Below, piece after piece: positions 44,876 through 62,278 of a stretch of DNA of 64,000 nucleotides; the stretch's first letter is position 1, and every line of letters begins with the position of its first letter. The stretch is taken from IMG/VR virus record IMGVR_UViG_3300028840_003168; one strand, written 5' to 3'. This DNA comes from a virus. The notes below the pieces were generated by a model. That model worked only from the letters and a program-made list of their open reading frames with translations, made no database searches and was not told the DNA's origin. The position numbers and the translations under genes are program-made.

Positions 44876-45322
44876 ATGGGTAAGAAGGAAATCAGGTTTG
44901 TGGTCAAAGGTAAGCCATGGGTACAGAAGAACAACCTTCAGATCCGAAAGCGAAAGTTAAAGGGAAAATGGGTACCTTTCATCGACCATTCCGACAAGCT
45001 AAAGAGTATCCGGGACCAGATAGCCATCGAGATGTACTCGCAATATCACCGACAAGGCCTAACCAAACCTATCGATTACCCAATCGAAGTGGAGTTCATA
45101 TTCTACTGCAAGCGCCAGTGGGAACCCGACCTGGACAACCTGCCGCAGATATGGCTGGACGCGGCCCAGGGGGTCAAGGCCAAGGGCGGATTGAAAATAG
45201 CAACCATTCTGACCGACGACAAGTTGGTCAGGAAAGAAACCAGCGAGAAAATCATGGAAGGAGATCCCCGTTATGACGGAGAACCAAGAACCGAAATCAC
45301 CATCCGAAGATACACCTTCTGA
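44876..45322 (+). CDS. rusA: RusA-like Holliday junction resolvase
   Basis: FVVKGKP, PDLDNL, LDA, DDKLV and PRTEITI motifs. Confidence 0.85.
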   Translation: MGKKEIRFVVKGKPWVQKNNLQIRKRKLKGKWVPFIDHSDKLKSIRDQIAIEMYSQYHRQGLTKPIDYPIEVEFIFYCKRQWEPDLDNLPQIWLDAAQGVKAKGGLKIATILTDDKLVRKETSEKIMEGDPRYDGEPRTEITIRRYTF

Positions 45323-47230: not shown

Positions 47231-47572
47231 ATGAAGGCTGTAGAGCTACAACTCCTTGAGCAGTTGGCCGAGGAGTACGGGATTTTTGAAAAAATGGGTA
47301 AGCGCCGACGTGTGGCCCAGGATGTTCTTGAGAACTCAATGTGGGCCAACATGATTAACGGCGCGTTGAAAGCCCTGGAGACCATTGCCATCATGAGTTT
47401 GGACTGGAAGTTGACGGCGATAGTCAAACTTTTACAGAGCTGGCTTAAAGACCAGCGGGAGAAGCAGGAGCAGAAAAAACAGGAGTCGGAGTACGGTGCC
47501 GGGTATCATTCGGATACTTACGATCAGGGCAATGCTTACGACCAACCTTATGGTGGAGGTACCTATTATTGA
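47231..47572 (+). CDS. Hypothetical protein
   Basis: 113 aa. Contains RRRVAQ, similar to the linker motif of the downstream genes. Confidence 0.5.
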   Translation: MKAVELQLLEQLAEEYGIFEKMGKRRRVAQDVLENSMWANMINGALKALETIAIMSLDWKLTAIVKLLQSWLKDQREKQEQKKQESEYGAGYHSDTYDQGNAYDQPYGGGTYY

Positions 47573-47620
47573 AAGTAACCTCGCTATGTGTTAAGGTTAT
47601 TTCATAGGTGGTGATTAAAA

Positions 47621-48472
47621 ATGAATAGAACAGCCAGAAAACAGAGACTTGCCCGTGCCAAACGCAGGGCTCATCATTTGTGGAAAGGGGCTGAGGAAGA
47701 CGGCAGGCCGGTTATTAAACGAGCGCGGCCTGAAGAGGAATTTGAAATGTCTATGGAAGCAGGACGTGGGAAGCGTGGTCGCAGGACTGCCGGTCGGAAC
47801 GAGGTGTCGGATCTGAATGCCGTATACTGGGGTCTGTTCGGGGCTTCCTTGGTGGACAGCAAAACCCTTTCGAGCGATATCCCTCGTTCGGTAGCGAATC
47901 AGTTCAATCGGACTGCTCGTCGGAATGCTGGCAACTTGCCGAGGGTTCTTGGATGGTCGAAGCTCGGTACCGCGTTCGCTACCGCGGACATTGCTGGTAT
48001 TCGTAAAGACATCTCTTTCGGGATGCAGACCAGGTTGGCATCCAAGTATTTCAACGTGCCCTTTCTCGCTGCCGCAGACATAGTCTACGACATGGAAGGT
48101 GTGGACCACCGTCAGGTCAAGCAGGCTATCGACATGATCCGTGAGGGCAGGCGCCGAGAGGCGGTTAACCGGTATGGCGACTTGGCCATGGAGCTTTCCC
48201 GCATCTACACCAAGTACAAGGATGCCAAGAACCGCAAACTGGCTATCGACCGATCCGCTAAGGAATATTGGGAGTCGTACCTGGGTCCTTTCGGCCAGGA
48301 GATGGTCCGCGAGATCAAGAAGCGTGTTCGTGCTGACCTCGCCAAGGCCTGGATGCGGAAGCACGGTGTTGACGATGCCGCTGCGGAGTACTGGGCCAGC
48401 TACTACGGGGAATACGGTGAGAAGTGGGTCTCCGTGGTCCCGAAGATGATCTCTCCCAAGAGTGACGATTAA
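47621..48472 (+). CDS. Hypothetical basic protein, candidate head-associated protein
   Basis: Many [RK]xA sites and two YWxSYxGxxG motifs. Confidence 0.6.
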   Translation: MNRTARKQRLARAKRRAHHLWKGAEEDGRPVIKRARPEEEFEMSMEAGRGKRGRRTAGRNEVSDLNAVYWGLFGASLVDSKTLSSDIPRSVANQFNRTARRNAGNLPRVLGWSKLGTAFATADIAGIRKDISFGMQTRLASKYFNVPFLAAADIVYDMEGVDHRQVKQAIDMIREGRRREAVNRYGDLAMELSRIYTKYKDAKNRKLAIDRSAKEYWESYLGPFGQEMVREIKKRVRADLAKAWMRKHGVDDAAAEYWASYYGEYGEKWVSVVPKMISPKSDD

Positions 48473-48800: not shown

Positions 48801-49412
48801 ATGCGAAACGTGAAACAAGACCTAGCAAACGCTTCTGGTAAAGTTGTGAGTGATATTGGTGGTGGCCGTTTAGCTGCCATGTACGCGCAGAATGCTGCTG
48901 CGCGTAGAGCGTATGACCGTGGGAACGAAGGACGCACCCATGACGACCGTGTTGTTCTGGAGAAGCTCCGTGCCATGGTAGAGCGTGGCATCGAGGAATC
49001 CGACAAGAAAGCTGTCAGCGGGAGCCTCCCGGTGAACTCGGTGTTCAATGCGCTTCAGATAGTTAATGAGAACAAAGAGATCAATCGGGACGTTGGTCTC
49101 AAGGCTTTGAAAGGTCACCTGGAAGCCAAGTGGAAACGTGACCGTACAGCCAGTATCTCTGCCGACGACTACAACCAGATTCGAGAGACGTATACGAGAA
49201 ATTATCCCCGTTCAGTGGTTGGCTCTGTGATTGATGAGATCGGACAGCAGGGTTACGTGACCCTTCCGTTATCGGATCTCATGCATATTGCCAGTAAGAT
49301 TCGTACCCAAGGGGATTTCGATAGGCTGATGAGGCGGCACGGGCTTCATACCAATCAGCTGCACCATAGAAAAGCCCGGAACTTCATCCTTTCGGTTGTC
49401 AACGGACGATAG
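48801..49412 (+). CDS. Hypothetical protein
   Basis: 203 aa, follows an AT-rich intergenic region containing TATATT. Confidence 0.6.
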   Translation: MRNVKQDLANASGKVVSDIGGGRLAAMYAQNAAARRAYDRGNEGRTHDDRVVLEKLRAMVERGIEESDKKAVSGSLPVNSVFNALQIVNENKEINRDVGLKALKGHLEAKWKRDRTASISADDYNQIRETYTRNYPRSVVGSVIDEIGQQGYVTLPLSDLMHIASKIRTQGDFDRLMRRHGLHTNQLHHRKARNFILSVVNGR

Positions 49413-49434: not shown

Positions 49435-52400
49435 ATGCCTAAGAATAAATCTATGCGAAATGGTCGTTTCACTCCGAGTTCAGTGGTCAATCGTATCCTT
49501 GATGGCAAGACGGTGACCGCGAATGGTTGGTCCATCGGCATTGACAACAATGACAAGGTGGTGACCTGGCCACCCCGCGGCGATGGGTTCATGACCACCA
49601 TGGCTAACATCGACAAGGCGGCGAAGGACTTCTGCAAGCAGGCAGAGATGCCCATGCCCAAGCCCTACACAGAGCCTGGAGATGCTGTGAGTGTCCCGAA
49701 GAGTCCCGGCCCTGACAGCGATTCCAAGAACATCTCCACCCCGAAGAATTACGCGGACGGCTCCGAGAGTTCCATCAGCGTTCCCAAGAGTCCCGGCAAG
49801 GACACTGAGACCGATCACTTCACCAGTCCTGCGGTGAATGAGGGCGTAGCTCCGAAGGGACCAATGACCGACACCAGCCTGGGCAGCGATTCAGATTCCA
49901 GCGAGTCAGGTATGGGTAAGGATATCAAGCAGACTCCTGACGGGGTGAAGGATGCTCGTCGGAGGCAGGCTGCGTTCATGGAGCCTATGGTGTGGGAGAG
50001 TGACTTTTACGCTATCGATGGTGGTATGGGTACGACTTTTGTAGAAGTTGATGTTGTGGGTGATATCCCTGTTACCGATTTAGAAGCCTTTGGAGACTAC
50101 TATGAGGGCGGTTTTGAGGGGATTGAGGAAGTTGAAAAGGTGCATGGGTGGGGATCTCAGATGTCGGCTCCTGGGTATATGGATCAGACTGATCTTAGTG
50201 TTTATGATACCAAGGAAGAAGCTATTGAGGCTCTGTTTGAGTACTACATGACAGATATGGGTGAGTTGGATGAGCAGTACGAAGAGTATCGTGACGAGTA
50301 CGAGAAGTATTACCTCAAAGGCGAGAAAGAAGCCCGTCGCAAACCCGCCCGAAGACGCCCTGCTCGACGGAGGGCTCAGGGAGATGATTGGTCCGACGAA
50401 CAGCACCAGGTTTGGGATGCGGTCGAACACGCGCTAGAGCAGTTGAACGCAGCTGAGTATGATCGTCAACGGGGTAAAGGTAAGAAGCCCTTGAAACAGT
50501 TCCATCCGAGTCCTGAAGGTGAGTTTTTGGAGGATCTTCGTCAGCAGTACATGCGAGGTGAGGTAGACGCTGAGACCGTAATGGCTACTTTGGCTAACCC
50601 TGAGCTTTGGGAAGCTCGATTTGGTGCGGCTCAAAAAAGAGCAAAAATCATCGACACCTTCTCCCAGGAACCTGATGGGAAAGAAATCTACGCCAACCTC
50701 ACGATGGCCCGACCGTCCGAAGCACTCCTGAAAGACATCGCGGACCCAGACAAATGGCTGGCCACCCAGACCATTCGTGCCATGGAGGAAGATGTAGAAG
50801 CTGGGTGTGGTGGCGGTCCTGGCAAGAAACGCAAAAAAGAGGAAGCCGAAGCTGAGATGGAAGCTGGCTGTGGTCCTCCTGAGAAGAAATCCTTTCGTAG
50901 GAAAGGTCAGTCCGATGATTACGATGTGTACCTGAAAGATGAGATTCAGGGTGAGTGGCTCTCGGGAGACAAGGACAAGGCTCTGGAGATGCTTGCGGGA
51001 GCCGATGATTGGATGACTCTTTTTAACGCGATACACCAGGGCTTGAAGTTCGCTACCCCGCAGGAGGGTACTGACTGGCACTCTGCCGTGCGCCAGTACA
51101 TGGAGTCTATCGGTAGGGACATGACTGCTCGACGCAGACCGCGCCGGTCGGTTCGCAAGAGGGGTCAGGATGAAGAAAACGGTGAGTATCCGATAGACCT
51201 GTATCTGGTGGTGTCTGACATTACAGAGTACATCAGTGGTCAACCTGAAGGAATAAATGTCACGGGTGCCTATGAGGTGCATTTAGTGGACGCTGCCGAA
51301 CAGACCCATCTCGCGGAAATGACCCCTTCATACTACGGACGTTTTGTCGGGTTACAGGCAACCGTTGATGACTATGGTGCGCTTTCGGAGGAACAGGCAG
51401 AGGCTCTGAACGACTATGAAATTGAGTTGTCAAACTATACTGAGTCTGGTGACTATTTCCGTGAGGCGGATATCAAGTCTGGTGTTCCTTACGACAAGGC
51501 GACGGTCTCTGGCAAAGAGGAACGTGACGAGTACATAGAGGATACGGTCGAATACCTGCAAGGTAACACTGCTGATTGGGAAAACGCCATTGATGAGGTT
51601 GCTCGTAAGAAGACTTCCAAAACCCGCCGATCCTACGAAGAACCCGGCGCAGATCGCAACCTGGACGTACCCGATGAGTTCATTGCGATGGAACCCCCCA
51701 AGACTCCCAAGGACAAGGAAGCCCGTCGCCGCAGACGCTCCCAGGATGAGGGCGGTGTCTACACCTTCGACCAGCTCGACGAGAAGGCCAAGGAAAAAGC
51801 CCTTTACTGGTTTTTGGAAGATGCTGATGTCTTTGAGTGGGAGGCTGAATACGTCATCGACGACGCCAAGGAAAATGCCCCTGCCGGTTTTCAGATAGAT
51901 GAGATTTTCTACAGCGGTTTTTCGTCGCAAGGCGATGGTGCTTCCTGGACAGGTTGGGTGGATCTCGCAGAGTGGGCCAAGGCCACTAATCAGGACGAGG
52001 GCATTATCAGACTCGTTGAGAGTGAGGAGATTGAGTCCTCTGCCAAAGTTACACAGGACGGGCGTTACTCTCATGAAAACACTATGGATGTCGAGGTTGT
52101 CATAGACCGTTATGAAGCTGATGAGGCTTCTGGCATGAGCGGAGACGAAATCGAGGCCAATGCCGACCAGTTACAGGAGGCTGTGCTGGATGCAGTAAAG
52201 GACTATGCCAGAGAGATCTATAGCAGGTTGGAGCAGGGCTACGACCATGTCTATAGCGAAGAGAACCTGAGCTACCTGGCTGAGGCGAATGAATGGGTGT
52301 TCAACAAGGACGGTACCTTTGCTTGGGACAAGAGCTACGATGACCTGATCACCCATCCTGATCAGATGAAGCTTCCTGGGGTAAAGGGCAAACGCAGACG

Positions 52401-54108
52401 TTCCTTTCGACGAAATGCTGGCCTATATGAAGACATTATGGATGCCGGTATTGAGACCGACAACCATGAGTCGGACCTCTATTTTCCTGTAACTCCTGAA
52501 TCAACTGAAATCCTGAAGAAGTACCCAATGAATGAAAAAAACTCTCAGACGTTCATAGATAATATCAGTGGTGATGAATGGTATGATGTTCCCTTTGCGT
52601 TTCCAGGAGTTAGGGGTAATAGAAAACGCCAAGCAGGCCCCAAACTCCGCGAGAAGTGGAATGACGGTGGTGATTACTCCAGGGATCTGGAAGCCGAGTC
52701 TGCCGAGGAGCTCTACAACCTGACCATGGCCTTTGGCGGTGAAGAGGTTGACTGGCCCGATACTACGGCTCAACCTGCCATGCCCGAGCAGGCACCTCCT
52801 GCTGAGGCACCTCCGGTCGGTGGCGTTGCCGCCGAAGAGGATATGTCCGAGGTAATGGCCAGCAGCAAGCTTGCCGAGTTCTCAGACATTGAGGCCGTGG
52901 ACGATGAGGCCAAGAGCTACTACGAGAGTTACTTTGGCGAGTACGGCAAACAACTGGTCAAGGACGATCCTCCTGGAAAGAAAGACAAGAAGGCCCCCAA
53001 GGACGGCAAACCTGAACTGGGCAAGCCAGAGAATAAGAAGGATAAGAAAAAGTCGAGGCTGGTTCGTCATAGGAAACCTGCTCGTCGGCACCCTCGTCGG
53101 AGGGCTCAGGACAAGAAGAACGGGCCTCGTTTTTTCGAGGAAGAAGAGGATCTATACCGCTGCCCCAATTGTGGGCAGGAGGAATGGACTACGGAGAGTT
53201 TTTTGGACAAGGGTCCGAAATTTGAAAAGTGTCCTAATTGCAGTGAGGGGATGGAGAGAGTAACCAGGGGACGGAGAACCCCTCGTCGGAGAGGCCAAGC
53301 CGCCCCCGCGGCACCGGCCCCCAAACAACCCGCAGCTCCTGCGGCACCCGCTGCACCAGCAGCGCCTGCGGCGGCACCTGCCGCCCCCGCGCCAGCACCT
53401 GCACAACCTGCTGACCCCGGTGCAGGAACGCCCCCCACGGGCAAGCCAGCAGCTCCTGGTGAGAAACTGGCACCCGGAGCAGGCGATGCCGGTATCCAGG
53501 CACTCGGATGGACTCCTGAGGACATCCAGACGATGACCGATGAGCAGAAGCAGGGCCTCCTGCAACTCAAGCTCATGAAACCCGGCGCACAGATACCTCA
53601 ACCTCCGGGAACACAACCTCCTGGGAAGCCCGAAGGTAAGCCTGGGGTACCGCCGAAAGCACCCGCGGGGCCTGCGGGTCCAGCAGGACCTCCCGGACCT
53701 GGAGAAGCGGCTCCTGGCGCACAGCCAGCGCAACCTGCACCGCAGGAGAAAGTTCAACCTGTAGTGGGTGCGATCAGCAAGATGCTGGCCCAGGTGGACC
53801 CCACGGCGGCTCCCGTGGACCCTACCATGGCCGGGGCACCCGCAGAGGCAGCCCCGGCACCCGCAGAGGCAGCCCCGGCACCCGCAGTAGGCGGTGAGCC
53901 GATTCTCTCTCCTGAGGAACAAGCATTTGCTATCCTTAGGGAGGTTCAATCGCAGGACATGAGCGCCATCGATCCGAAGCAATTGGTATCCGCTAAGAGC
54001 CAGGAGCTGATCAGGCGGCTTCAGACTGAAATAGGTATGACCGTTCAAGAGGCCGAGAAACTGTTCGGCGTATCAAAGAGCAAGGGCTTCGCAAGCCTGT
54101 TTTCATAG
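49435..54108 (+). CDS. Modular acidic polyprotein-like protein A with Arg-rich linkers
   Basis: About 1557 aa from ATG 49435 (ORF open from 49396). About 11 Arg-rich linkers, SVPKSPG repeats, CPNC..CPNC ribbon and Pro/Ala-rich C-terminus. Confidence 0.8.
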   Translation: MPKNKSMRNGRFTPSSVVNRILDGKTVTANGWSIGIDNNDKVVTWPPRGDGFMTTMANIDKAAKDFCKQAEMPMPKPYTEPGDAVSVPKSPGPDSDSKNISTPKNYADGSESSISVPKSPGKDTETDHFTSPAVNEGVAPKGPMTDTSLGSDSDSSESGMGKDIKQTPDGVKDARRRQAAFMEPMVWESDFYAIDGGMGTTFVEVDVVGDIPVTDLEAFGDYYEGGFEGIEEVEKVHGWGSQMSAPGYMDQTDLSVYDTKEEAIEALFEYYMTDMGELDEQYEEYRDEYEKYYLKGEKEARRKPARRRPARRRAQGDDWSDEQHQVWDAVEHALEQLNAAEYDRQRGKGKKPLKQFHPSPEGEFLEDLRQQYMRGEVDAETVMATLANPELWEARFGAAQKRAKIIDTFSQEPDGKEIYANLTMARPSEALLKDIADPDKWLATQTIRAMEEDVEAGCGGGPGKKRKKEEAEAEMEAGCGPPEKKSFRRKGQSDDYDVYLKDEIQGEWLSGDKDKALEMLAGADDWMTLFNAIHQGLKFATPQEGTDWHSAVRQYMESIGRDMTARRRPRRSVRKRGQDEENGEYPIDLYLVVSDITEYISGQPEGINVTGAYEVHLVDAAEQTHLAEMTPSYYGRFVGLQATVDDYGALSEEQAEALNDYEIELSNYTESGDYFREADIKSGVPYDKATVSGKEERDEYIEDTVEYLQGNTADWENAIDEVARKKTSKTRRSYEEPGADRNLDVPDEFIAMEPPKTPKDKEARRRRRSQDEGGVYTFDQLDEKAKEKALYWFLEDADVFEWEAEYVIDDAKENAPAGFQIDEIFYSGFSSQGDGASWTGWVDLAEWAKATNQDEGIIRLVESEEIESSAKVTQDGRYSHENTMDVEVVIDRYEADEASGMSGDEIEANADQLQEAVLDAVKDYAREIYSRLEQGYDHVYSEENLSYLAEANEWVFNKDGTFAWDKSYDDLITHPDQMKLPGVKGKRRRSFRRNAGLYEDIMDAGIETDNHESDLYFPVTPESTEILKKYPMNEKNSQTFIDNISGDEWYDVPFAFPGVRGNRKRQAGPKLREKWNDGGDYSRDLEAESAEELYNLTMAFGGEEVDWPDTTAQPAMPEQAPPAEAPPVGGVAAEEDMSEVMASSKLAEFSDIEAVDDEAKSYYESYFGEYGKQLVKDDPPGKKDKKAPKDGKPELGKPENKKDKKKSRLVRHRKPARRHPRRRAQDKKNGPRFFEEEEDLYRCPNCGQEEWTTESFLDKGPKFEKCPNCSEGMERVTRGRRTPRRRGQAAPAAPAPKQPAAPAAPAAPAAPAAAPAAPAPAPAQPADPGAGTPPTGKPAAPGEKLAPGAGDAGIQALGWTPEDIQTMTDEQKQGLLQLKLMKPGAQIPQPPGTQPPGKPEGKPGVPPKAPAGPAGPAGPPGPGEAAPGAQPAQPAPQEKVQPVVGAISKMLAQVDPTAAPVDPTMAGAPAEAAPAPAEAAPAPAVGGEPILSPEEQAFAILREVQSQDMSAIDPKQLVSAKSQELIRRLQTEIGMTVQEAEKLFGVSKSKGFASLFS
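53835..53887 (+). repeat. 21-bp tandem repeat x2.5
   Basis: Unit GGCACCCGCAGAGGCAGCCCC encodes APAEAAP. Confidence 0.9.
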
Positions 54109-54123
54109 ACGAGGAGAATTTCT

Positions 54124-54564
54124 ATGTCAGAAAAATATGTAGCGTATAACCTAACAAAAGGTATCGTGAGCTTCGGGCTGGCGGTAGCCGTGGCACCAGA
54201 GGAGCTTGAAGGTCTTCCCTCGCACCGCAGGCGCAGAACTCTCAAGAGCAACATCATTCAGATCGTGATCCCTTACGGAGAATCGATGGATTTGGTGGAG
54301 AAGACTGGGTTGTCGGCAGACCAGATAAAATCATCTGCCGAGCTGATAAAGCTCATTTCTCGGAATGCTGTTCGGGTTGAGGTCAGCAATGTGAAAGAAG
54401 ATCCGAAGCCCGAGGAAGCTCCCAGGCCGCAGACCAGGACTCTCGATGAGCCGGTGGATGAGAAGGTCCAGGAGGACGCCCCTGAAGAGGAGGCTGATTC
54501 TGAGGGCAAGAAGGCTTCCAAGAAGTCGGACAAGAAGTCCAAGAAGTCTAAAAAGAAGGGTTAA
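54124..54564 (+). CDS. Hypothetical protein with charged low-complexity tail
   Basis: GAGGAG RBS, C-terminal KKSDKKSKKSKKKG. Confidence 0.6.
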   Translation: MSEKYVAYNLTKGIVSFGLAVAVAPEELEGLPSHRRRRTLKSNIIQIVIPYGESMDLVEKTGLSADQIKSSAELIKLISRNAVRVEVSNVKEDPKPEEAPRPQTRTLDEPVDEKVQEDAPEEEADSEGKKASKKSDKKSKKSKKKG

Positions 54565-54570
54565 GCCGCG

Positions 54571-55134
54571 GTGCTAGTAAAATCCCATAGCCTCAGGTTC
54601 TTGGAGGACTATGGGATAGTACGCGGTAAGACTGTTCACCTGTACGAAAATGGCGACGTGACTGTAAAGCAGTGTTCGCCGGTTTCACCCGTTCTACGGG
54701 TCAATGCTTTGTGGCTGAATAGGGACTTGAAAGTGAAGTGTGACGTGGCAGACACCCCGGCGAAAAAGAGACTCGGACTTCAGGATCATTCCGAGCTTTC
54801 AGAGAGCCGTGGTATGTACTTCCCGTATGTGAAGTACTCCAACGTGACCTTCCACCAAGGGTCCGTACCTTTCAGCTTAGACCTTCTTTTTTTAAGAGAT
54901 AATGTGGTGGTGGATGTTGAGGAGCTCACCAAGGTTGGTTCAAGCGACCGGTGGAGCTGCTCGGGGTGTGATGGGGTACTTGAAGTCAATGGTGGCTGGT
55001 GCGCCGACAAACAGGTGTGCCTGGGGGATAAGATAGCGTTGTTCGCGCTTACCCAGCGTGACCTCGATGAGCTGGAAGCTGAACGTAAGGCTGACAGTTT
55101 TTTGTCGATGGTTGCTGATAGGATAGTGGTGTAG
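54571..55134 (+). CDS. DUF192-family protein
   Basis: VADTPAKKRLGL, GMYF, VPFSLDLLFL and VLEVNGGW...GDKI motifs. Confidence 0.8.
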   Translation: MLVKSHSLRFLEDYGIVRGKTVHLYENGDVTVKQCSPVSPVLRVNALWLNRDLKVKCDVADTPAKKRLGLQDHSELSESRGMYFPYVKYSNVTFHQGSVPFSLDLLFLRDNVVVDVEELTKVGSSDRWSCSGCDGVLEVNGGWCADKQVCLGDKIALFALTQRDLDELEAERKADSFLSMVADRIVV

Positions 55135-55156
55135 GTTCAAAAAGGAAGATATTGAG

Positions 55157-58100
55157 ATGAACATCAACGAACTGAGAAATAAGGGTCACGTCAAGAACAG
55201 CCCGATCATTAAAGGTCTCAAGCGGCAGCAGCGTCTGGTGCAGGCTAATTTGAATCGTCATGCCCAGCAGCATTCCTTGACGGATATGTTCTCTGCTTTG
55301 AAACCCGGTGCTCGGGAGGATGACCGGCAGCTTCATTCACTGGTAAAGACCGCTGTGAGTGAGACGAACGATCTGCTCAACCAGTTCTACTTTCCTGTGG
55401 CGCCTCAACTGGCCTTCACCAAGGTTAAGAATGTCAAGTACGCCAAGCACGATGACTCCGAGGTGGTGTCCGGTTGCATCATGCTCAATTGCAAGATCGC
55501 TTCGTTGAGTGGTGTGGACGTGGACGCGGACATCCCGGTTCATGTTGAGCGTGGAGAGCTTGTACTGCCTTCAGTGCTGTACCAGGATGGTCGGGAGCAT
55601 GTGATTGCTCAGTCCACTATCGACATGATTACCCAGCGTCATACCTCGTATGCGCTGCCCGAGCTGCGCCAGCAGGGGGAACCTCCCTATGACCTGGAGG
55701 AAGCCAAGATGGCCACCGAGTCCAGGAACGCCATCGGGTACCAGCCCAGGAAACCGATATACCTGGACGAGGTAACACAGAATAACGATTTCAGGGACAA
55801 ACGACCCAGGATCGCCGCCAAAGGCGCTCCACTCGGATTCAAGATAGTCAAGGAGGAGATGGACAAGGCCGAGGCGGATGGTCTCGATACCTTCCCCAGA
55901 CCTATCGACTACATCCTGGCCACCTATGTCAGGCCGATCATGGGTGAGGTGTACATGAGCGCATGGGCGCCGGCCCTCACCAACGGCGGGTACGCGATCA
56001 ACCCCTACGGAGAGAACCGCGGCAGGCCTAAGACGGGGAGTCGTCGGAAAGTTGCGGGTCTGGGAGACAAATTCATCGACAATTTCGGTGACGTTAATTG
56101 GTTGGAGCATGGCGGCAAGCTGCTTTTTGAAGGGGAGTCCGGCCCTTACGTGGTAGTGGTTGATACCTGGCGATTGGATGACGGTCAAGCCGAAGGTGAG
56201 TCCGATCCTGATATGATTTGGGATGTCTATCGTGTGGATATTGAGGACGGTTTCAAGGAAGACGAGAACGGCGATGTCATAGGATCTAATGGTTATACTG
56301 AGTGGTGGTCTAAGCGGGATGAGATGGAAGGCATCGCGTCTACGGTGGGTCAGGATGTTGAGGAGTTCATAGATGACATTACTTCGGAAGACTTGAAAGA
56401 TCGTTTTTTTGCGTATGATACGATTGCAGCTACCTGGGGATGGGAAAATCTCGAAGGAGGGCCTGCTGACCAGTACGACATAGACGACCTTGTTCGGCTC
56501 TTTGAGGGTACTGAGTTAGAGGAAACTGTAAAAGATGTTGCCGAATTTCGGGATTTGGGGCTGGCGCAGAGAGACGAAGAAGCCGAAGATGAGTTCAGTG
56601 ATTATGCCGACGAGGACGACCCGGATGAGGGTTACGATTTCAAGGAAGCCCGTCGCCGCCGAGCTGGAGAACCTTTTGGCACAGACGTAGATTTCTTTGA
56701 ACAGTGGTTTCACGGTGCGGGTTTCTATAGCTTTGGAGACATGATAGAGGGTTACTTCGATTTGAATGACGATGACCTAGTCACTGTTGCTGCTGCGACT
56801 GACGGTGGCAGCATGTCTCCCCCTTATGCCCTTTTGATAGAGCAAGGCGGCAACCCTGATGTGATGATGGACGCTGTTGTAGAGATGCTTGAAGAGAATT
56901 TGCGGCATTTCCGAAGTGATGACATCGATAAGGCTTATCAAGAAGAATTGAAAGAGCGCGGCATTAGGGACTTCGATGACTATGCTGATGACGATGACAT
57001 GGATGAGGAGCGGTGGGACATCCAGTCTGAGATAGACCAACAGTATGCGGGTGCCGAAGGTTTAGAGCTTTTCAAAATCCCACCTCAAGATCTGTTGCGT
57101 ATTATCAAAGGTCATCGGAACTCCGAAGAGTTGCTGGAGCGTATCGGGGTTGAGGGGCTGGACTATGAAAGCGCCGAAGAAGACTTCAGTGAACGAGAAG
57201 CTCGTCGGTATGAAGCGGGATATGGTTCTGAAACTGGTGATTGGGGTGAGCCTCACAAGTTGCATGGTGTAACCTATCTTGAACTCCCAGACGGACGCTG
57301 GGAGGTTCCTGGCAACCAGGGCATGCCTGCTGAATTTTTTGACAGCGAGAGTGACGCTCGGGACTACATTGCCTCGTACAAGGACAATGGCCGAGAAGCC
57401 CGTCGCCGTGCCCAGGTAGAGGTAGACGCCGAAGAAGCCGAGATGATCATCATGAACGATGAGGGCATGTACAACGAGGCCATGTTCATCGTTCGGCAAT
57501 GGAACGGCACCAACATAAAAGACATCACCGCAGACTTCATGGAGTACTTTGGAGATCTCAGCGAGACCATGGATGTGGGTGACTGGGAGGATGTTGCCCG
57601 AGAGATTATTGAGGGGATGGAAGATGACGAAGAACATCCTCCAGGGATGGAACCTGATTCCACCTGGGAGAGCAAGTGGGAGTTGATGCTCAAGGAGGGT
57701 GTGAGTGGTTCTGTGGATATTGAGGTAGAGTACGATTACATGGTGTTCGAGGACGGAATCACGCAGTACTATCCTGATGCGGATTTGGTTGAGAGTGGGG
57801 ACAACTATGATAACCAGATGCTCAAGGCAATAGAAGCCAAGTACCCGGATGCTTATGTGTCGGTGCAGCCTGGAGCGCGTGACGACATTACTGTGACCGT
57901 GAATGTCGATGAGCAAGGAGATGAGTCTGATCAGTTGGAAGATAAGAGACTTACCTGGATGCTGGCCAAAGAGAAAGAGATTCAGTCTGACGTTAGAGAC
58001 ATGATGGAAGAGGGTGTTGAGTCCTGGGACTGGCTTGTGGAAGCTGGTGAGGACGACAATGGCCGGGAGGCCCGTCGCCGCAAGGCCCAACAGGTTAGAC

Positions 58101-60538
58101 TGGATGCGGGTCAGTTCGGGTGGGACTATCTTTTGGTAAATGAAGAGACTGGTGAGGACATCCTTATCCAGACAGATTGGGACTATCCTGGCGTGGCTTC
58201 TTATTTGGGGTGGCAGCATATTTGTCCTGATGGGGAAGCCCATGGTGAGACTGACGGGACGGTTGACTGTCCAGTGTGTGGAGAATCCTCAAGTGACATG
58301 ATTGGGGAAGCAGGAGAGTTCCTGGACGATCACATTGGGGATACCTTTGAAGACCCGGGATATTTCAGCGAGTCCAGAGGGGCCAAACGGAGATGGTTTC
58401 GGCAAGGTCAATCAATGGAGTTAGAGGATCTCCCTGCGTGGCAGACTACACTCCCTGACGAGATCAAGCAGCTATGGTTTGATGGAAATAGAGAAGAAGC
58501 TCTTGACCAGTTGTTCCAGACCGATGGCGGCTATGCTATCTATCAGCAGATACAGGAGGACTGGGGTGATGCGGAGTTTGCGGCTGCTGTGAGTGACCGT
58601 CATTCAAAGAATATGGAAGACCTCAAGCGTAGCCGTAGTTCTGCTCGACGGAGGCGTCTTCGGCAAGGCTCCCGAAGGGCCAATGCCACCTCGTCGATCA
58701 TAAGCAAAATCGACAACGACCCGCGCTCGTACATCGGCGCGAAGAAGCTCATCGACCAGACTGACGACAAGCTGAAATTAGCCGAGAAACTCGAAGCCTA
58801 CTTCACCAAGAGGGATGGAATCTCCACGGACGGCGTGAACTGGGGCAAGGTCGTGGATGCAGTCCATGCAAAGTTCGGTGAGGAAGCCGTGAAGGACAAT
58901 GATGGGAAAGAAGCCCGTCGCAGACGTGCTTTTCACATTCCGATAGAGGAAGTGGAGTTTGATCTTGAGATTATGGAAGACGATGTTCCTGTTCGCGGGA
59001 ATGCCATAGTCTCTGGTGATGATGATCTTGATAAGGAAGTTGAGGATGAGATTCTTGAGCGTCTTGAGACCGGCGATTTGTGGGCCTGGTGTACCGTTAA
59101 GGTCACTGCCGAGTGGGAAGCTGAGGATGGCCGTATTTTTAGCGGCGAGGACTATTTGGGGGGTTGCTCTTACAGGGATGAGGAAGACTTCACGGAGCCT
59201 GGGGGCTACTACGACGATATGAAGGAGCAGGCCTATGCAGAGCTTCTTGCAGAGGCTTCAGGTGCAGATCCGCAACCGATGGACCCTCGCCAGCAGAAGC
59301 TTCCCGGAGTTGATGCCCGTCGCCAAGCCAAGAGCATAAAAGAAAAGCTGGAAGAGTTCCAAGGTGTGGAGATAATCTTCGAGGATACTGGAGATGAGGA
59401 TACCGAATATATTGTCAAAGCACTTCAGGACGCAGGGGTTGATGCCAGTCTGGGTGACTACACTGAAGTGGATGGTGATAGTCTTGCCAATAGTGTGTAC
59501 GCTGAAAACATCATCAAAGATATAGAAGCAATCGTTTTCGGTGATGATGACGAGGAAGAGGAACCTGAGCGTGGAGAGCGTTGGGAAGATCTGAGTGACG
59601 ATGAGAAACGCTGGTACCACGAGGAACAACGTATCATAGACAGAAACAGAGGTCTGGAATCTCGCCGCCATGCCCAGGATGATATGATTCCTCAAGTATG
59701 GGAGGGTTCTTTTTACGCTTTGGATTTTCCTTCCGGGACCGAGTTTATTGATGCCAGCTGGGTGGATGAGTCTCTTTCCGAATTGAAAAATGCTAATTTT
59801 GCTAAGGGAGGTGTCCCTGAAGATGTGCGGGAGGTCCAGGGCTGGGGTGCTCAGTTGGTTTCTCCTGATGGCGTTGAGTACACAGATTTAGAAGTGTTTG
59901 ACACCGAGGATGAAGCTCGGGCGTCTTTGAAGAGGGGAAGAGGGGCTCGTCGCCAGGCCCAGACCTACGAATGGACCAACGACATCACCCGGCAGGCCTA
60001 TGAGGTTCTGAACCGCGACAAGGCCACTGTAGCCGCCGTGGAGGAACTCATGGCTGCTCATGCCGAGGACGCCGACAACACCATCCTAGTAGGCAACCTG
60101 GCACCTCTCCTTGGAAGTGAGATGGATTTCACCGAGGGCAGCTCTCACGAGATTGTCTGGGAAGAGGTCATTGAGAACTTCCAAGGCGGCACCCCCGAGA
60201 CCATGTACGATGAGAGCTACCAGATGGCCGCTTCCCGGCAGGCCATGCCCATGGAAGAGGACTTGGAGATGGACGGACCCCCGATGGAACTCGAAGAGTT
60301 CATCGATGAGGAACCGGCCCCCAAAGAGCCGCGCAAGTGGCCCGGTACCAAAGCCCCCATGGAGAACGGTGATAAAGCGAAGTTCAATGGGCATGACGGT
60401 CCCATCCGCGGGAAGATTGTGGAGATCGATGAGGCGGGAGATACCCTCATCCTGGAGAGCAAGGGGATGCAGTACCGGGTAGTGGTGGATGACGTGGAGG
60501 CTCTCCCGAGTACGATGAACAAGATGTGGAAAGAGTAG
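55157..60538 (+). CDS. Modular acidic polyprotein-like protein B with Arg-rich linkers
   Basis: 1793 aa. About 12 linkers (EARRRRAG, EARRRAQ, EARRRKAQ, DARRQA, ESRRHAQ, GARRQAQ and others). SH3-like C-terminus. Confidence 0.85.
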   Translation: MNINELRNKGHVKNSPIIKGLKRQQRLVQANLNRHAQQHSLTDMFSALKPGAREDDRQLHSLVKTAVSETNDLLNQFYFPVAPQLAFTKVKNVKYAKHDDSEVVSGCIMLNCKIASLSGVDVDADIPVHVERGELVLPSVLYQDGREHVIAQSTIDMITQRHTSYALPELRQQGEPPYDLEEAKMATESRNAIGYQPRKPIYLDEVTQNNDFRDKRPRIAAKGAPLGFKIVKEEMDKAEADGLDTFPRPIDYILATYVRPIMGEVYMSAWAPALTNGGYAINPYGENRGRPKTGSRRKVAGLGDKFIDNFGDVNWLEHGGKLLFEGESGPYVVVVDTWRLDDGQAEGESDPDMIWDVYRVDIEDGFKEDENGDVIGSNGYTEWWSKRDEMEGIASTVGQDVEEFIDDITSEDLKDRFFAYDTIAATWGWENLEGGPADQYDIDDLVRLFEGTELEETVKDVAEFRDLGLAQRDEEAEDEFSDYADEDDPDEGYDFKEARRRRAGEPFGTDVDFFEQWFHGAGFYSFGDMIEGYFDLNDDDLVTVAAATDGGSMSPPYALLIEQGGNPDVMMDAVVEMLEENLRHFRSDDIDKAYQEELKERGIRDFDDYADDDDMDEERWDIQSEIDQQYAGAEGLELFKIPPQDLLRIIKGHRNSEELLERIGVEGLDYESAEEDFSEREARRYEAGYGSETGDWGEPHKLHGVTYLELPDGRWEVPGNQGMPAEFFDSESDARDYIASYKDNGREARRRAQVEVDAEEAEMIIMNDEGMYNEAMFIVRQWNGTNIKDITADFMEYFGDLSETMDVGDWEDVAREIIEGMEDDEEHPPGMEPDSTWESKWELMLKEGVSGSVDIEVEYDYMVFEDGITQYYPDADLVESGDNYDNQMLKAIEAKYPDAYVSVQPGARDDITVTVNVDEQGDESDQLEDKRLTWMLAKEKEIQSDVRDMMEEGVESWDWLVEAGEDDNGREARRRKAQQVRLDAGQFGWDYLLVNEETGEDILIQTDWDYPGVASYLGWQHICPDGEAHGETDGTVDCPVCGESSSDMIGEAGEFLDDHIGDTFEDPGYFSESRGAKRRWFRQGQSMELEDLPAWQTTLPDEIKQLWFDGNREEALDQLFQTDGGYAIYQQIQEDWGDAEFAAAVSDRHSKNMEDLKRSRSSARRRRLRQGSRRANATSSIISKIDNDPRSYIGAKKLIDQTDDKLKLAEKLEAYFTKRDGISTDGVNWGKVVDAVHAKFGEEAVKDNDGKEARRRRAFHIPIEEVEFDLEIMEDDVPVRGNAIVSGDDDLDKEVEDEILERLETGDLWAWCTVKVTAEWEAEDGRIFSGEDYLGGCSYRDEEDFTEPGGYYDDMKEQAYAELLAEASGADPQPMDPRQQKLPGVDARRQAKSIKEKLEEFQGVEIIFEDTGDEDTEYIVKALQDAGVDASLGDYTEVDGDSLANSVYAENIIKDIEAIVFGDDDEEEEPERGERWEDLSDDEKRWYHEEQRIIDRNRGLESRRHAQDDMIPQVWEGSFYALDFPSGTEFIDASWVDESLSELKNANFAKGGVPEDVREVQGWGAQLVSPDGVEYTDLEVFDTEDEARASLKRGRGARRQAQTYEWTNDITRQAYEVLNRDKATVAAVEELMAAHAEDADNTILVGNLAPLLGSEMDFTEGSSHEIVWEEVIENFQGGTPETMYDESYQMAASRQAMPMEEDLEMDGPPMELEEFIDEEPAPKEPRKWPGTKAPMENGDKAKFNGHDGPIRGKIVEIDEAGDTLILESKGMQYRVVVDDVEALPSTMNKMWKE

Positions 60539-60541
60539 ACC

Positions 60542-62278
60542 ATGGACGAAGGATACACATTCACGCTCCAGGGTTACGACGTAGTTGTGAACGAGACCGA
60601 GAATTCCGAGGTTTTCCATGTTCAGATTCATGAAGGTGGGGCGCCTGTCTATGAGACCGATGTCCCCATCACTTTGGAGGACGAGGAAATTATCCTTGAT
60701 GAGGTAATCGATCACGCGGCCAAGGCTGCGATTGATATGTACGAGTCGGAGAAAGGTACCTTGGGACAAGGTGCTGAACCGCTAGAAATAGAGGCCAAAA
60801 TGAAAAGAGGACAAGCGATAGCTTCCCCAGGATGCTACTGGATGGAGTCGTGCAACTACACCGAATGGCTCATGCAGCTCAAAGGCACCCCCTACGAGCA
60901 GCAGGCCATCGTTCTGCTTGAGGAACTTATCAACCTCCAGGCCCCAGGCGCGACCAACACCGAGCTGGATGCTTTGTATAAGCAGAAAAGCCAGGTGGAG
61001 CATGAGCTGGATCGGCTGAACCTGGAGAGACTCAAGACTGCCGATCCTCCCAAACAGATCGTTGTCATTGAGGCCAACCGTACCCGGCGTGTGAGCTTCT
61101 CCGGGTTAGACTGGGTCGAAGGTTTCCTGGATGCGTTCAAAGACCACAGGCTGGAGCCTCAGGCCATTCTCAAGGTCAAGGAACTGATCGACCTGGAAGC
61201 GGCCATCGACGTGGCCAGCGCCACCGAGAGTGGTACCTGGGACCAGCAGGACGAGGTTCGCCGGCAGATGGACGCACTGCTCATCGAGAAGACCAAGTCC
61301 GAGGTGGACCAGAAGCTCCCCCAGAGCGGCATCGAGGTGGCCCCTGAGATGGCCAACGACATCGCTGACCTGATGGAAGGCGTCTCGATGGACGCTCCCC
61401 TGGAGCCGATGGTGGCTCGTCGCCGGCAGGTTGCTTACGAGGAGTACTACCCCGGTGAACACGGGGAAGGTGCGACAAGCAACTCGATTCTGGATGCCAT
61501 GGCCCGTGCCGTGTATGTGACCAGCTGGTCTAGTGAGTGGGAGTACCTGTGGGAAGACTATGAGGACGAGGTTATCGAAGAAGAAGCTGAAGAACTCGGA
61601 ATCGAAGTTCCCAATTTCATGGGTGCTGAACTCATGTCGATTGCACCGCCCACTGAGAAAGAGGCTCATGACCTTGCCAAGAAAGTGTATGACGAAATCG
61701 AGCGCGATAACAATGTGAACCTCGAAGACTTCATCCCGCCAGGAGAGGATGAGGACTTTGATCAGTTTGAGTTTGGTCACTATCTCATGATGGAGGTGCT
61801 GGGTTCTGGTGTTGCCTGGAGCGATGACCACGAAGACCACGGGTTGAAGCTCCCGTGGGAGGAGGGGGTCCAAGTTGAGGGCCTGACTCCTTTGGTGAAT
61901 GTCTTGTACGAGAAATATGGGGAGGGTCGCGAGGCTTCCAGAAAAGGCTGCCGCAGACCTGTTAGAAAGAGAGCCCAGGATGACAAGAAAGACCCTTTCG
62001 AGGTTGAGGAATTTGGTACGGAACTGGGGAAGGGTCACGGGGACCTGGACCCCGCGGAGGTTCCCGAAGCGACCCGAGTTCCTTTCGGCCCAGGCAACTA
62101 CATAAAGCTCAAGAACGAGGTCAAGGTTCCGTTGTGGGGAGGAGCTTCTCGTACCATACCCAAAGGTACGAAAGGGTTTGTGGACTCTTTGTATGACGGC
62201 CACGGCGACCGTTTCTATATCAGAACTGAAGAAGGCGCTCTGTTCAGCACCGACCGAGATAATTTGGCAAAAGCTTAG
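60542..62278 (+). CDS. Modular acidic polyprotein-like protein C
   Basis: 578 aa. Linkers EAKMKRGQ, EANRTRRVS, VARRRQVA and EASRKGCRRPVRKRAQ. Internal helical repeat and SH3-like C-terminus. Confidence 0.8.
   Translation: MDEGYTFTLQGYDVVVNETENSEVFHVQIHEGGAPVYETDVPITLEDEEIILDEVIDHAAKAAIDMYESEKGTLGQGAEPLEIEAKMKRGQAIASPGCYWMESCNYTEWLMQLKGTPYEQQAIVLLEELINLQAPGATNTELDALYKQKSQVEHELDRLNLERLKTADPPKQIVVIEANRTRRVSFSGLDWVEGFLDAFKDHRLEPQAILKVKELIDLEAAIDVASATESGTWDQQDEVRRQMDALLIEKTKSEVDQKLPQSGIEVAPEMANDIADLMEGVSMDAPLEPMVARRRQVAYEEYYPGEHGEGATSNSILDAMARAVYVTSWSSEWEYLWEDYEDEVIEEEAEELGIEVPNFMGAELMSIAPPTEKEAHDLAKKVYDEIERDNNVNLEDFIPPGEDEDFDQFEFGHYLMMEVLGSGVAWSDDHEDHGLKLPWEEGVQVEGLTPLVNVLYEKYGEGREASRKGCRRPVRKRAQDDKKDPFEVEEFGTELGKGHGDLDPAEVPEATRVPFGPGNYIKLKNEVKVPLWGGASRTIPKGTKGFVDSLYDGHGDRFYIRTEEGALFSTDRDNLAKA

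What the first reader, a model, noticed from the sequence alone, without database searches (positions are those of the whole stretch)
49435..62278. Three giant 'beads-on-a-string' proteins: acidic modules joined by a recurrent Arg-rich linker, a candidate virion-packaged, protease-processed cargo system
Seen: ORFs A, B and C consist of strongly acidic blocks of roughly 50-200 aa, separated about 27 times by short basic linkers. The linkers begin with a small residue (EA, DA, KG, ES) and end with the consensus [RK]-x-[AGS], very often followed by Q. In A: RRQA|A, RRRA|Q, QKRA|K, RRKG|Q, RKRG|Q, TRRS|Y, RRRS|Q, RRNA|G, KRQA|G, RRRA|Q, RRRG|Q. In B: NRHA|Q, RKVA|G, RRRA|G, RRRA|Q, RRKA|Q, FRQG|Q, RRRA|F, RRQA|K, RRHA|Q, RRQA|Q, SRQA|M. 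In C: MKRG|Q, RRVS|F, RKRA|Q. Established: T4 and phiKZ-like phages package internal head proteins that the prohead protease cleaves at short motifs, and some of these (T4 IPI*) are injected anti-defence factors. Inference: the linker is a packaging/DNA-binding and cleavage signal. One gene would then load a dozen different small effectors into the capsid, possibly DNA-mimic or anti-defence proteins given their acidity. No candidate head protease is visible in this window.
Basis: partly seen in the sequence, partly recalled or inferred. Interest (0 to 1): 0.92.

Follow-up and report, generated by a model that had tools for sequence, protein, structure and literature searches.

The report
Phage cargo-like polyproteins with basic-Ala-Gln joints
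An uncultured 158-kb marine or sediment phage strings about 30 small, mostly acidic protein modules into three giant proteins through a repeated basic-x-Ala/Gly-Gln joint; the same motif ends the leaders of small virion-module genes and flanks the head protease domain, so the chains are probably cut apart, perhaps inside the capsid, but no cutting or packaging has been measured.

Summary
ORFs A (1557 aa), B (1793 aa) and C (578 aa) are real genes with 27 basic joints ending [RK]-x-[AGS] and usually followed by Gln. RR[RKQHN][AGS] occurs 15 times against 0.5 in shuffles.

Wherever I could test them, the joints are true module borders:
- Sixty-nine stand-alone homologues of module B9 start 1-23 residues (median 2) before its first residue.
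- AlphaFold2 gives B9 as one compact domain followed by a low-confidence tail that holds the next joint.
- Related phages carry short "core" versions of B and C. Our extra modules sit exactly between two joints.
- Relatives keep K/R-x-A-Q at the borders but are often not Arg-rich.

The head protease was not in the window. I found it 26 kb upstream. It starts with FRKTAQ, and its catalytic domain ends in ILKVAG, aligned with the protease-scaffold junction of the nearest deposited relative. About 17 small acidic genes carry leaders ending K-[AG]-Q.

The best reading (confidence about 0.45) is that these are protease-processed, possibly capsid-loaded cargo polyproteins. Cleavage, packaging and any anti-defence role are inferred. 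The modules have no known fold or family.

This scan noted similar polyproteins in T4-like phages with Glu-type joints. This one comes from a different capsid lineage and uses a different motif.

The parts
49435..54108 (+). ORF A, 1557 aa. It has 12 modules and 11 joints, ending at residues 179, 314, 403, 491, 577, 733, 769, 995, 1067, 1224 and 1287. Its N-terminal (about 11-147), middle (about 1040-1190) and C-terminal (about 1328-1556) parts are conserved in relatives. The rest is variable.
55157..60538 (+). ORF B, 1793 aa. It has 13 segments and 12 joints, ending at residues 36, 300, 503, 752, 977, 1084, 1175, 1258, 1391, 1506, 1601 and 1696.
60542..62278 (+). ORF C, 578 aa. It has 5 modules and 4 joints (90, 185, 298, 478). 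It starts 4 nt after B's stop codon.
55265..56056 (+). B core N-domain (B37-300). It is conserved at 29-62% identity in all relatives and always ends NPYG..R..[RK]..[AG][QG].
   Evidence: the AlphaFold2 model has low confidence
56057..60244 (+). Ten inserted cassette modules, B3-B12 (B301-1696). They are absent from the short B-core forms of relatives (379-498 aa), whose matches cover only about B2-295 and B1694-1792.
58088..58408 (+). Module B6 (B978-1084), with a Cys/His motif. Homologues are stand-alone 91-166 aa proteins, or the last module of small fusions. The 91-aa homologue P0005 starts at the residue matching B978.
58931..59329 (+). Module B9 (B1259-1391), a compact alpha/beta domain. 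It is the match for 136 of the 150 best hits of the exhaustive search, and the 69 I aligned are stand-alone phage proteins with a median length of 140 aa.
60245..60535 (+). Module B13 (B1697-1793), the conserved C-terminal small beta domain of the B core.
51742..52419 (+). Module A8 (A770-995) = phrog_5162. In rV5-like coliphages and in Campylobacter phages this is a stand-alone gene, matched over about 228 aa by tblastn.
61436..61975 (+). Module C4 (C299-478), a mobile cassette. It is absent from the C-core of relatives and present inside an A-like protein (L012) and in P0026.
49972..50376 (+). Module A2, a paralogue of B11 (59675-59959): 38% identity over 95 aa.
50908..51165 (+). Module A5, a paralogue of B7 (58409-58681). 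The joints on both sides align as well.
57395..57406 (+). One of five in-frame copies of the joint 12-mer GAAGCCCGTCGC. The others start at 50329, 51718, 56645 and 58910.
48801..49412 (+). N203, 203 aa. It is a separate gene here. In relatives it is the N-terminal domain of polyproteins that carry B- and C-type modules (P0006, P0026, P0131, L015, L016).
47231..48472 (+). Two upstream genes (113 aa and 283 aa) that carry the same motif: KRRRVAQ|D at residue 30, and GRRTAG and ARRNAG. They probably belong to the same system.
54124..55134 (+). Two small genes between A and B: a 146-aa protein and a DUF192 protein (187 aa). Both sit in the same position in relatives.

Best explanation
A, B and C are conserved core proteins of this phage group. 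In this lineage they have been expanded by in-frame insertion of many unrelated small accessory-protein cassettes. Each cassette brings or uses a short joint with the consensus (D/N-G)-[RK]-E-[AG]-[RS]-[RK]-x-[AG] followed by Q or G. The joint is most likely a processing site with a basic residue at P2/P3, Ala/Gly/Ser at P1 and Gln at P1'. The likely enzyme is the phage's own head-maturation protease. The same sequence, or the basic segment just before it, may also address the chains to the procapsid. This would parallel the N-terminal leaders of the phage's small acidic genes, and T4's capsid-targeting sequences. One gene would then deliver about a dozen separate small proteins, plus short Arg-rich peptides that could stay on the DNA. 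Shown here: the anatomy, the independence of the modules, cassette insertion exactly at joints, conservation of the K/R-x-A-Q core in relatives, and the presence of the motif at both ends of the protease domain and at leader ends. Inferred: cleavage, the identity of the protease, packaging, injection, and what the modules do.
For: (1) The motif is not due to chance, at the protein or the DNA level. (2) Joints coincide with domain borders. B9's stand-alone homologues start 1-23 residues (median 2) before F1259. AlphaFold2 with a 70-sequence alignment gives pLDDT 96-98 for B1265-1364, falling to about 60 over the segment holding the next joint. P0005 starts at B978. phrog_5162 fills A771-961 between two joints. 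(3) Core forms in five IMG/VR relatives match only B2-295 plus B1694-1792, and C2-290 plus C482-578. So 10 B modules and C4 are insertions bounded by joints. C4 and B9 turn up in other polyproteins elsewhere (P0026, L012). (4) Relatives at 29-62% identity keep [RK]-x-A-Q at the borders, for example REGSKTAQ, RGSKKKAQ, GRKQAQ and FDRKAQ. (5) The phage encodes a prohead protease (phrog_18299, E 4e-30). It starts MSFRKTAQ. Its catalytic domain ends ILKVAG, leaving 37 C-terminal residues. This aligns with ILKAAQ at the protease-scaffold fusion junction in Rctr197k. In SPN3US the protease likewise removes its own 64-residue C-terminal propeptide (PMC10052503). (6) Small acidic genes carry leaders: 8 in the head/neck module and 9 downstream. 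Most end ...K[AG]Q, RKTGQ or a close variant just before an acidic body. P0160 carries such a leader internally, used as a joint. (7) The scaffold carries RKRRRPARRRPAR and SFKRGQ|D, and the capsid protein has an Arg-rich N arm of about 65 aa, the same style as A's joints. (8) No embedded peptidase is detectable: no Pfam hit and no HExxH. If the chains are cut, the enzyme therefore acts in trans.
Against: There is no proteomic, N-terminal or expression data for this phage or any relative. The specificity of this protease family is unknown, so the claim that the joint matches the protease rests on the protease's own termini and on leader ends. The bare 4-mer [RK]x[AG]Q is only weakly enriched outside the polyproteins, 20 observed against 15 expected. 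In two relatives the protease termini read KKVSS and KAAS, while their joints read K-x-A-Q, so covariation between the two is not demonstrated. The genes sit next to SbcCD/RusA and an SNF2 helicase, about 70 kb from the head genes. No promoter class ties them to late genes. C has no N-terminal leader. Strongly acidic cargo (net -400 for one copy of each chain) would be repelled by packed DNA; T4's internal proteins, as I recall, are basic. BLAST finds no significant similarity between leader-tagged small genes and polyprotein modules.
Confidence: 0.45

Rival explanations
1. These are uncleaved cytoplasmic multidomain (polyvalent-type) proteins. The modules work while tethered. The joints are only flexible, charge-balancing spacers and the places where in-frame recombination adds cassettes. 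The shared DNA 12-mer is the functional element, acting as microhomology for cassette exchange, and the peptide it encodes is a by-product.
For: The joint is fixed at silent positions, with GAAGCCCGTCGC occurring 5 times. Modules are inserted or swapped exactly at joints. The genes lie in the replication/recombination region. Stand-alone B9 homologues sit in the early or accessory region of a P22-like phage. Some known polyvalent proteins are transferred or packaged uncleaved (PMC5512222).
Against: Relatives at about 30-35% identity share no DNA-level joint, yet still keep K/R-x-A-Q at the borders. So the peptide itself is under selection. The same peptide ends unrelated N-terminal leaders and flanks the protease domain, which a pure spacer would not explain. 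Modules that are independent small proteins elsewhere would probably need to be released.
Confidence: 0.25
2. The chains are cut at the joints, but in the cytoplasm and by another protease, either a host enzyme that prefers basic sites or an unrecognised phage enzyme in the cluster. This would be a polyprotein expression strategy with no capsid loading.
For: The joints are di- or polybasic, the sort of site many bacterial proteases accept (general knowledge). The cluster keeps two conserved genes of unknown function between A and B, one of them DUF192. The genes are far from the head module.
Against: DUF192 has no known peptidase activity, and a literature search found no functional study of it. 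The conserved part of the motif is x-A-Q, not the basic run. The motif also occurs in leaders of genes inside the virion module and at the head protease termini.
Confidence: 0.12
3. The proteins act as blocky polyampholytes. Multivalent Arg-rich stickers and acidic blocks drive self-association or condensation, forming an inner-body-like mass in the capsid or a compartment in the infected cell. Alternatively, the basic stretches are binding sites for the phage's trigger-factor-like chaperone, so that each module folds separately.
For: There are 27 Arg-rich stickers among acidic blocks. The capsid protein and scaffold carry matching Arg-rich and poly-acidic tracts. A phage gene with a Trigger_C domain lies 3 kb upstream, in the same position in a relative. 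From memory, trigger factor prefers basic/aromatic segments.
Against: Arg-richness is not conserved. Several relatives have a single Lys per joint. The modules are folded domains with independent homologues, not disordered acidic tracts.
Confidence: 0.08

Closest known systems
Phage T4 internal proteins IPI/IPII/IPIII and Alt: capsid-targeting sequence plus gp21 prohead-protease processing. The phiKZ/SPN3US ejection proteins processed by gp175/gp245 work the same way.
   Same: A short N-terminal peptide ends in the protease's motif, cargo would be loaded into the prohead and trimmed, and the protease trims itself (PMC10052503). Here the same logic is suggested by leader-tagged small genes, by the motif at both protease termini, and by joints identical to the leader ends.
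   Different: Those systems cut after Glu (L/I-x-E or A-x-E) and remove one N-terminal propeptide from each protein. Here the candidate site is basic-x-Ala/Gly|Gln and recurs up to 12 times in one chain, between unrelated modules. There is no sequence homology to the T4 or phiKZ proteins. The protease is phrog_18299, whose capsid lineage includes phage G, PaBG and Rctr197k. Nothing has been shown experimentally.
Polyvalent proteins of phages and conjugative elements (Iyer, Burroughs, Anand, de Souza, Aravind 2017, PMC5512222)
   Same: Many disparate domains sit in one polypeptide of a phage, with extensive domain shuffling and predicted delivery with the DNA. The authors themselves drew the analogy to RNA-virus polyproteins.
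   Different: None of the characteristic domains (MuF, ART, zincin peptidase, ParB, methylases, LPD families) is detected here, and there is no embedded peptidase. The genes are not next to portal or terminase. A uniform joint motif is the defining feature here, whereas the word 'linker' does not occur in that paper. The relative Rctr197k does have a classical polyvalent protein (2176 aa, between terminase and portal), with motifs such as KKRTAG, RRTAA and KTAQ that I judged by eye to lie near domain borders.
Adenovirus core precursors (pVII, pre-Mu) cut by the adenoviral protease; herpesvirus assemblin cutting at Ala|Ser
   Same: A maturation protease acts inside the capsid with a small residue at P1, and releases Arg-rich peptides that stay on the DNA. 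This is from my own knowledge and was not tested here.
   Different: These are eukaryotic viruses with unrelated proteins. The comparison is only an analogy for what the Arg-rich joint peptides might do.

Membership tests
T4-type capsid-targeting-sequence cargo (IPs, Alt) | Sequence homology to T4 IP/Alt proteins or to the gp21 protease | tested here: not met
   Pfam and PHROG scans of A, B and C give no such family. The protease is phrog_18299 and has no Pfam hit.
T4-type capsid-targeting-sequence cargo (IPs, Alt) | An N-terminal targeting peptide that ends in the prohead protease's cleavage motif | tested here: inconclusive
   B starts with a 36-aa basic segment ending NRHA|Q. A has no clear equivalent and C has none. 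About 17 small genes of the same phage do have such leaders. The protease's specificity is unknown.
T4-type capsid-targeting-sequence cargo (IPs, Alt) | Presence in virions and processing by the prohead protease | not testable with these tools
   The phage is uncultured and no proteome exists. Only DNA holders were found among public runs.
Polyvalent proteins (Iyer et al. 2017) | Two to 15 unrelated domains in one phage polypeptide, with shuffled architectures among relatives | tested here: met
Polyvalent proteins (Iyer et al. 2017) | Carries the characteristic effector or peptidase domains (MuF, ART, zincin MPTase, DdrB-ParB, methylase, LPD) | tested here: not met
   No Pfam family at E <= 0.01 for A, B or C, nor at E <= 0.1 for the pieces that were scanned singly. 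No HExxH motif.
Polyvalent proteins (Iyer et al. 2017) | Encoded beside the portal/terminase/MuF packaging genes | tested here: not met
   Portal, a MuF-like gene, protease, scaffold and capsid protein lie 21-30 kb upstream of the window start, about 70 kb from A.
phrog_5162 (module A8 only) | Profile match over the whole family model | tested here: met
   E 1.2e-26, A771-961 against profile positions 5-196 of 201. tblastn matches of about 228 aa in rV5-like phages.
Head-maturation protease as the processing enzyme | The candidate site occurs where such proteases process themselves and the scaffold | tested here: inconclusive
   FRKTAQ lies at the N-terminus, and ILKVAG at the end of the catalytic domain aligns with the fusion junction ILKAAQ in Rctr197k. 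Two closer relatives read KKVSS and KAAS at those positions.

The most novel reading that the evidence does not exclude
This is a protein-level operon in a tailed phage. A head protease with basic-x-Ala|Gln specificity, a kind not described for phages, would cut three polyproteins into about 30 acidic effectors inside the procapsid. It would release protamine-like Arg peptides that stay on the DNA. The joint's fixed DNA sequence would serve as the recombination point through which related phages trade single effector cassettes in frame.
Probability: 0.3. Interest if true: 0.85.

Novelty: new variant of a known kind. Interest (0 to 1): 0.7.

Why it matters
If the joints are cut, one gene gives a phage a dozen independent small proteins in fixed proportion. 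That would be a compact way to carry, and perhaps pre-load, an arsenal, and it would allow single cassettes to be swapped without touching regulation. It would also define a new protease specificity for the phage G / PaBG / Rctr197k capsid lineage. With that rule, processed virion proteins could be predicted across many uncultured phages. The modules themselves are uncharacterised: the exhaustive search with B301-1500 found about 900 cluster representatives at E <= 1e-10, most of the best 150 matching B9, with no Pfam family and no solved fold. They are therefore a ready list of candidate host-takeover or anti-defence proteins to screen. A search of the held papers for bacteriophage polyproteins tied to a prohead protease found only the 2017 polyvalent-protein analogy.

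Tried and rejected
- **Searches against cultured phages.** Megablast of the 12.8-kb region found no match. tblastn of B found nothing, and tblastn of A matched only the phrog_5162 module.
- **Full-length relatives of B.** A word-based search for proteins of similar length found only B itself.
- **Function of B9 from its fold.** Foldseek against the PDB gave nothing at E <= 0.001. VIA-align wide gave a best Z of 5.8 (dsRBD/RF1-like sandwich, below the noise level the tool states). BFVD and the ESM Atlas returned only uncharacterised phage proteins.
- **B N-domain.** The AlphaFold2 model was poor (pLDDT 57, six sequences). Its best structural matches were generic cystatin/NTF2-like sheets with Z <= 7.7, so I drew no conclusion. 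The ESM Atlas feature search gave no hit above 0.79.
- **Frameshift fusion of N203 with A.** Rejected. There is a clean TAG stop, a 22-nt spacer with the phage's usual AAGGAAG ribosome-binding site, and an ATG.
- **Internal translation starts at the joints.** Rejected. AAGGAAG occurs inside two joints, but no start codon follows.
- **Embedded protease.** None found.
BLAST finds nothing at E < 0.05 except a weak hit: L003 9298 against C6-59, E 0.048.
- **Shared promoter motif linking the cluster to late genes.** GGTATATT occurs only on the + strand and lies upstream of N203 and of a head-module gene. It also lies upstream of a replication-module gene, so it says nothing about timing.
- **Covariation of the joint motif with protease termini.** Tested in two near-complete relatives; inconclusive.
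- **Whole-record searches of the source contig.** Not possible because the record is not held. I walked upstream and downstream by exact-protein look-ups instead.
- **Complex prediction of protease with a joint peptide.** Not run: the tool advises against enzyme-substrate pairs, and chains must be at least 30 residues.

Full report
**Setting.** The window is a stretch of a tailed-phage genome, and every gene in it lies on the + strand.
- Baseplate and tail genes occupy 0-18 kb.
- A replication module occupies 19-41 kb: helicases, primase, family-A polymerase, clamp loader and a UvsX-like recombinase.
- SbcCD, RNase H and RusA follow at 40-45 kb.
- The same proteins lie on a 157.9-kb ENA metagenome contig.
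- Near-identical DNA is held by a sediment run and a seawater run, each possibly the source sample.
- The nearest deposited genome is Virus Rctr197k, with 57% capsid identity. More distant capsid and protease relatives are phage G, PaBG, phiRSL1, Erwinia jumbo phages and large actinophages.

- ORFs A (49435-54108), B (55157-60538) and C (60542-62278) encode 1557, 1793 and 578 residues with net charges of -98, -233 and -67.
With two more (B1175, C298) there are 27.
- RR[RKQHN][AGS] occurs 15 times against 0.5 expected from shuffles. Its density is 20-fold higher than in the other 46 proteins of the window.
- The fuller consensus is (D/N-G)-[RK]-E-A-R-R-R-x-[AG]-Q.
- The joint is also fixed as DNA. 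GAAGCCCGTCGC occurs five times, always in frame in A or B. Seven of 16 Ala-Arg-Arg triplets are spelled GCC CGT CGC, against about 0.3 expected from codon usage.

**The joints are real domain borders.** Pfam finds nothing in the three proteins, and PHROGs finds one family: phrog_5162 fills A771-961, exactly between two joints. In rV5-like phages it is a stand-alone gene.

An exhaustive HMMER search with B301-1500 found 2086 cluster representatives at E <= 1e-3. Of the best 150:
- 136 match B1259-1391 (module B9);
- 12 match B978-1084 (B6);
- 2 match earlier modules.

In an alignment of 69 stand-alone B9 homologues (median length 140 aa), the proteins begin 1-23 residues, median 2, before the column of F1259. 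That is the first residue after RRRRA.

AlphaFold2 with that alignment gives a confident compact alpha/beta domain, with pLDDT 96-98 for B1265-1364. Confidence then falls to about 60 over the segment that carries the next joint.

A 91-aa protein starts at the position of B978. Modules A2/B11 and A5/B7 are paralogues, and for A5/B7 both flanking joints align too. I found no alignment or model in which one domain runs through a joint. The one HSP that crosses B503 is a conserved two-module block whose joint aligns with the joint.

**The giants are expanded cores.** Six IMG/VR loci and several metagenome proteins carry the same gene order: a trigger-factor-like gene, an N203-type gene, an A-like gene, two small genes including DUF192, then B-like and C-like genes.
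- The relatives' B proteins can be as short as 379-498 aa. These match only B2-295 and B1694-1792.
- Their C proteins match C2-290 and C482-578.
- So about 1400 residues of B (modules B3-B12) and module C4 are insertions placed exactly between joints.
- The junction of the short B forms already reads NPYG..RGRRAQ or ..RKKKSQ.
- Cassettes move between chains. C4 occurs in an A-like protein of L012 and, with B9, in P0026 behind an N203 domain. B6 and B3 occur behind N203 in P0006 and P0131.
- N203 is a separate gene in our phage, and no frameshift is plausible.

**What is conserved in the joint.** Across relatives at 29-62% identity the borders read REGSKTAQ, REGSRTAQ, RGSKKKAQ, GRKQAQ, FDRKAQ, KRKAQ and, in the most distant ones, AKTAQ or IKAQ. 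The conserved core is therefore basic-x-Ala-Gln. The long Arg runs are a speciality of this phage and of L012.

**Link to head maturation.** The protease is not in the window. I walked upstream by exact-protein look-ups and found these genes:

| Gene | Length (aa) | Notes |
|---|---|---|
| Portal | 603 | contains VKRTAQ |
| MuF-like gene | 341 | |
| Prohead protease | 301 | phrog_18299, E 4e-30 |
| Scaffold | 646 | |
| Unassigned protein (weak Ig-like and virion-structural PHROG hits) | 254 | |
| Capsid protein | 433 | phrog_2522 |

- The protease starts MSFRKTAQ.
- Its catalytic domain ends ...ILKVAG, followed by 37 more residues.
- In Rctr197k the protease is fused to the scaffold. Its N-terminus (FHKTAR) and the fusion junction (ILKAAQ|LEG) align with these two sites.
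- SPN3US gp245 is documented to remove a C-terminal propeptide from itself (PMC10052503).
- The scaffold contains SFKRGQ|D and RKRRRPARRRPAR, almost the string found in A's second joint.
- The capsid protein has an Arg-rich N arm of about 65 residues.
- Eight small acidic genes in the head/neck module, and nine more 4-8 kb downstream of C, begin with one of two basic leaders: MRLKGLSxKGVxRVA... or MRHEDFIKGVNKNA... Most of these end in K-[AG]-Q, RKTGQ or RKTA just before the acidic body.
- The relative P0160 carries such a leader (MRMQGISKSGIARIAKSLKRKKAQ) inside a polyprotein, used as a joint.

So leader ends, joints and the protease's own termini share one motif class. This is the pattern expected for a capsid-targeting and cleavage signal in the manner of T4. 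It remains circumstantial.

**Limits.**
- The protease's specificity is unknown.
- The bare 4-mer is hardly enriched outside the polyproteins, 20 observed against 15 expected.
- In two near-complete relatives the protease termini read KKVSS and KAAS while the joints read K-x-A-Q.
- The cluster lies about 70 kb from the head genes, next to recombination genes.
- The candidate promoter motifs do not separate it from either module.
- The claimed homology between a C module and a leader-tagged gene is not supported by BLAST.
- Module function is open. B9 has no match in the PDB (Foldseek E > 0.06; VIA Z 5.8). It resembles only uncharacterised phage proteins. A stand-alone B9 homologue sits among small early-region genes of a P22-like phage. 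That position is typical for accessory or anti-defence genes but proves nothing.

**Comparison with what is known.**
- The logic is that of T4 internal proteins and phiKZ-like ejection proteins: a targeting propeptide plus the prohead protease. There is no homology to them, and here the site recurs inside the chains and is not a Glu site.
- The architecture is that of polyvalent proteins (PMC5512222). Three of their features are missing: the characteristic domains, an embedded peptidase, and a position beside the portal. Their description also includes no uniform joint.
- Rctr197k has a classical polyvalent protein with KKRTAG, RRTAA and KTAQ motifs that I judged by eye to lie near its domain borders. 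This suggests the same protease rule serves both kinds of chain in this lineage.
- The scan's notebook lists similar polyproteins in T4-like phages, joined at Glu sites. Those are unchecked AI notes on other DNA, and I did not test them. A literature search for bacteriophage polyproteins tied to a prohead protease returned only the polyvalent-protein paper's analogy.

**Verdict.**
- My odds: about 0.9 that the joints delimit independent cassettes; about 0.55 that they are cut; about 0.4-0.45 that the head protease does it in the procapsid and the products travel with the DNA.
- This is a new variant of a known kind: capsid cargo processing combined with polyvalent proteins. It comes with a new candidate cleavage motif and an unusually clear record of cassette insertion.

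Noticed in passing
window 45273-46589: A phage-encoded 438-aa protein with a trigger-factor C-terminal domain (Pfam Trigger_C, 37.1 bits against a cut-off of 22.7). A 421-aa gene sits in the same place, after RusA, in a relative. It may be a phage chaperone for the giant multidomain chains.
   Followed up: partly
window 54571-55134: A DUF192 protein (E 8e-18) lies between A and B, and sits in the same position in relatives. A literature search found no functional study of DUF192.
   Followed up: partly
L003:7843-15683 and L010:17004-20495 (L010 position x = window x + 52859): About 17 small acidic genes begin with one of two shared basic leaders, MRLKGLSxKGVxRVA... or MRHEDFIKGVNKNA.... Most leaders end in K-[AG]-Q or a close variant. 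They look like capsid-targeting sequences.
   Followed up: partly
L003:4722-6023 and L003:1971-3911: The major capsid protein has an N-terminal arm of about 65 residues made almost entirely of Arg, Lys, Pro and Ala. The scaffold combines a poly-Asp/Glu tract with RKRRRPARRRPAR. The relative Rctr197k has a Gln-rich arm instead.
   Followed up: no
window 17522, 18583, 63575; window 33733, 48760, 62808; L011 6057: Two motifs occur only on the + strand, 20-45 nt upstream of starts: TATATTGACAGG (3 copies) and GGTATATT (6 on the + strand, 0 on the - strand). They are candidate phage promoters of unknown class.
   Followed up: partly
L011:1-5146: A 1978-aa gene rich in Ser, Thr and Gly, with internal repeats (probably a fibre), lies upstream of the portal. 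It has no basic joints and is not part of the polyprotein system.
   Followed up: no
L005:1139-7666 (Virus Rctr197k, locus tag _045): A 2176-aa protein between terminase and portal contains HExxH motifs and GNAT-like and HAD-like stretches (read by eye; I ran no Pfam scan on it). KKRTAG, RRTAA and KTAQ motifs lie near its apparent domain borders. It is annotated only as 'similar to hypothetical protein'.
   Followed up: no
L003:6134-6955: The gene after the capsid gene carries a precomputed Pfam RRXRR hit and a weak N-terminal match to an HNH-endonuclease PHROG. No nuclease domain is detected.
   Followed up: no
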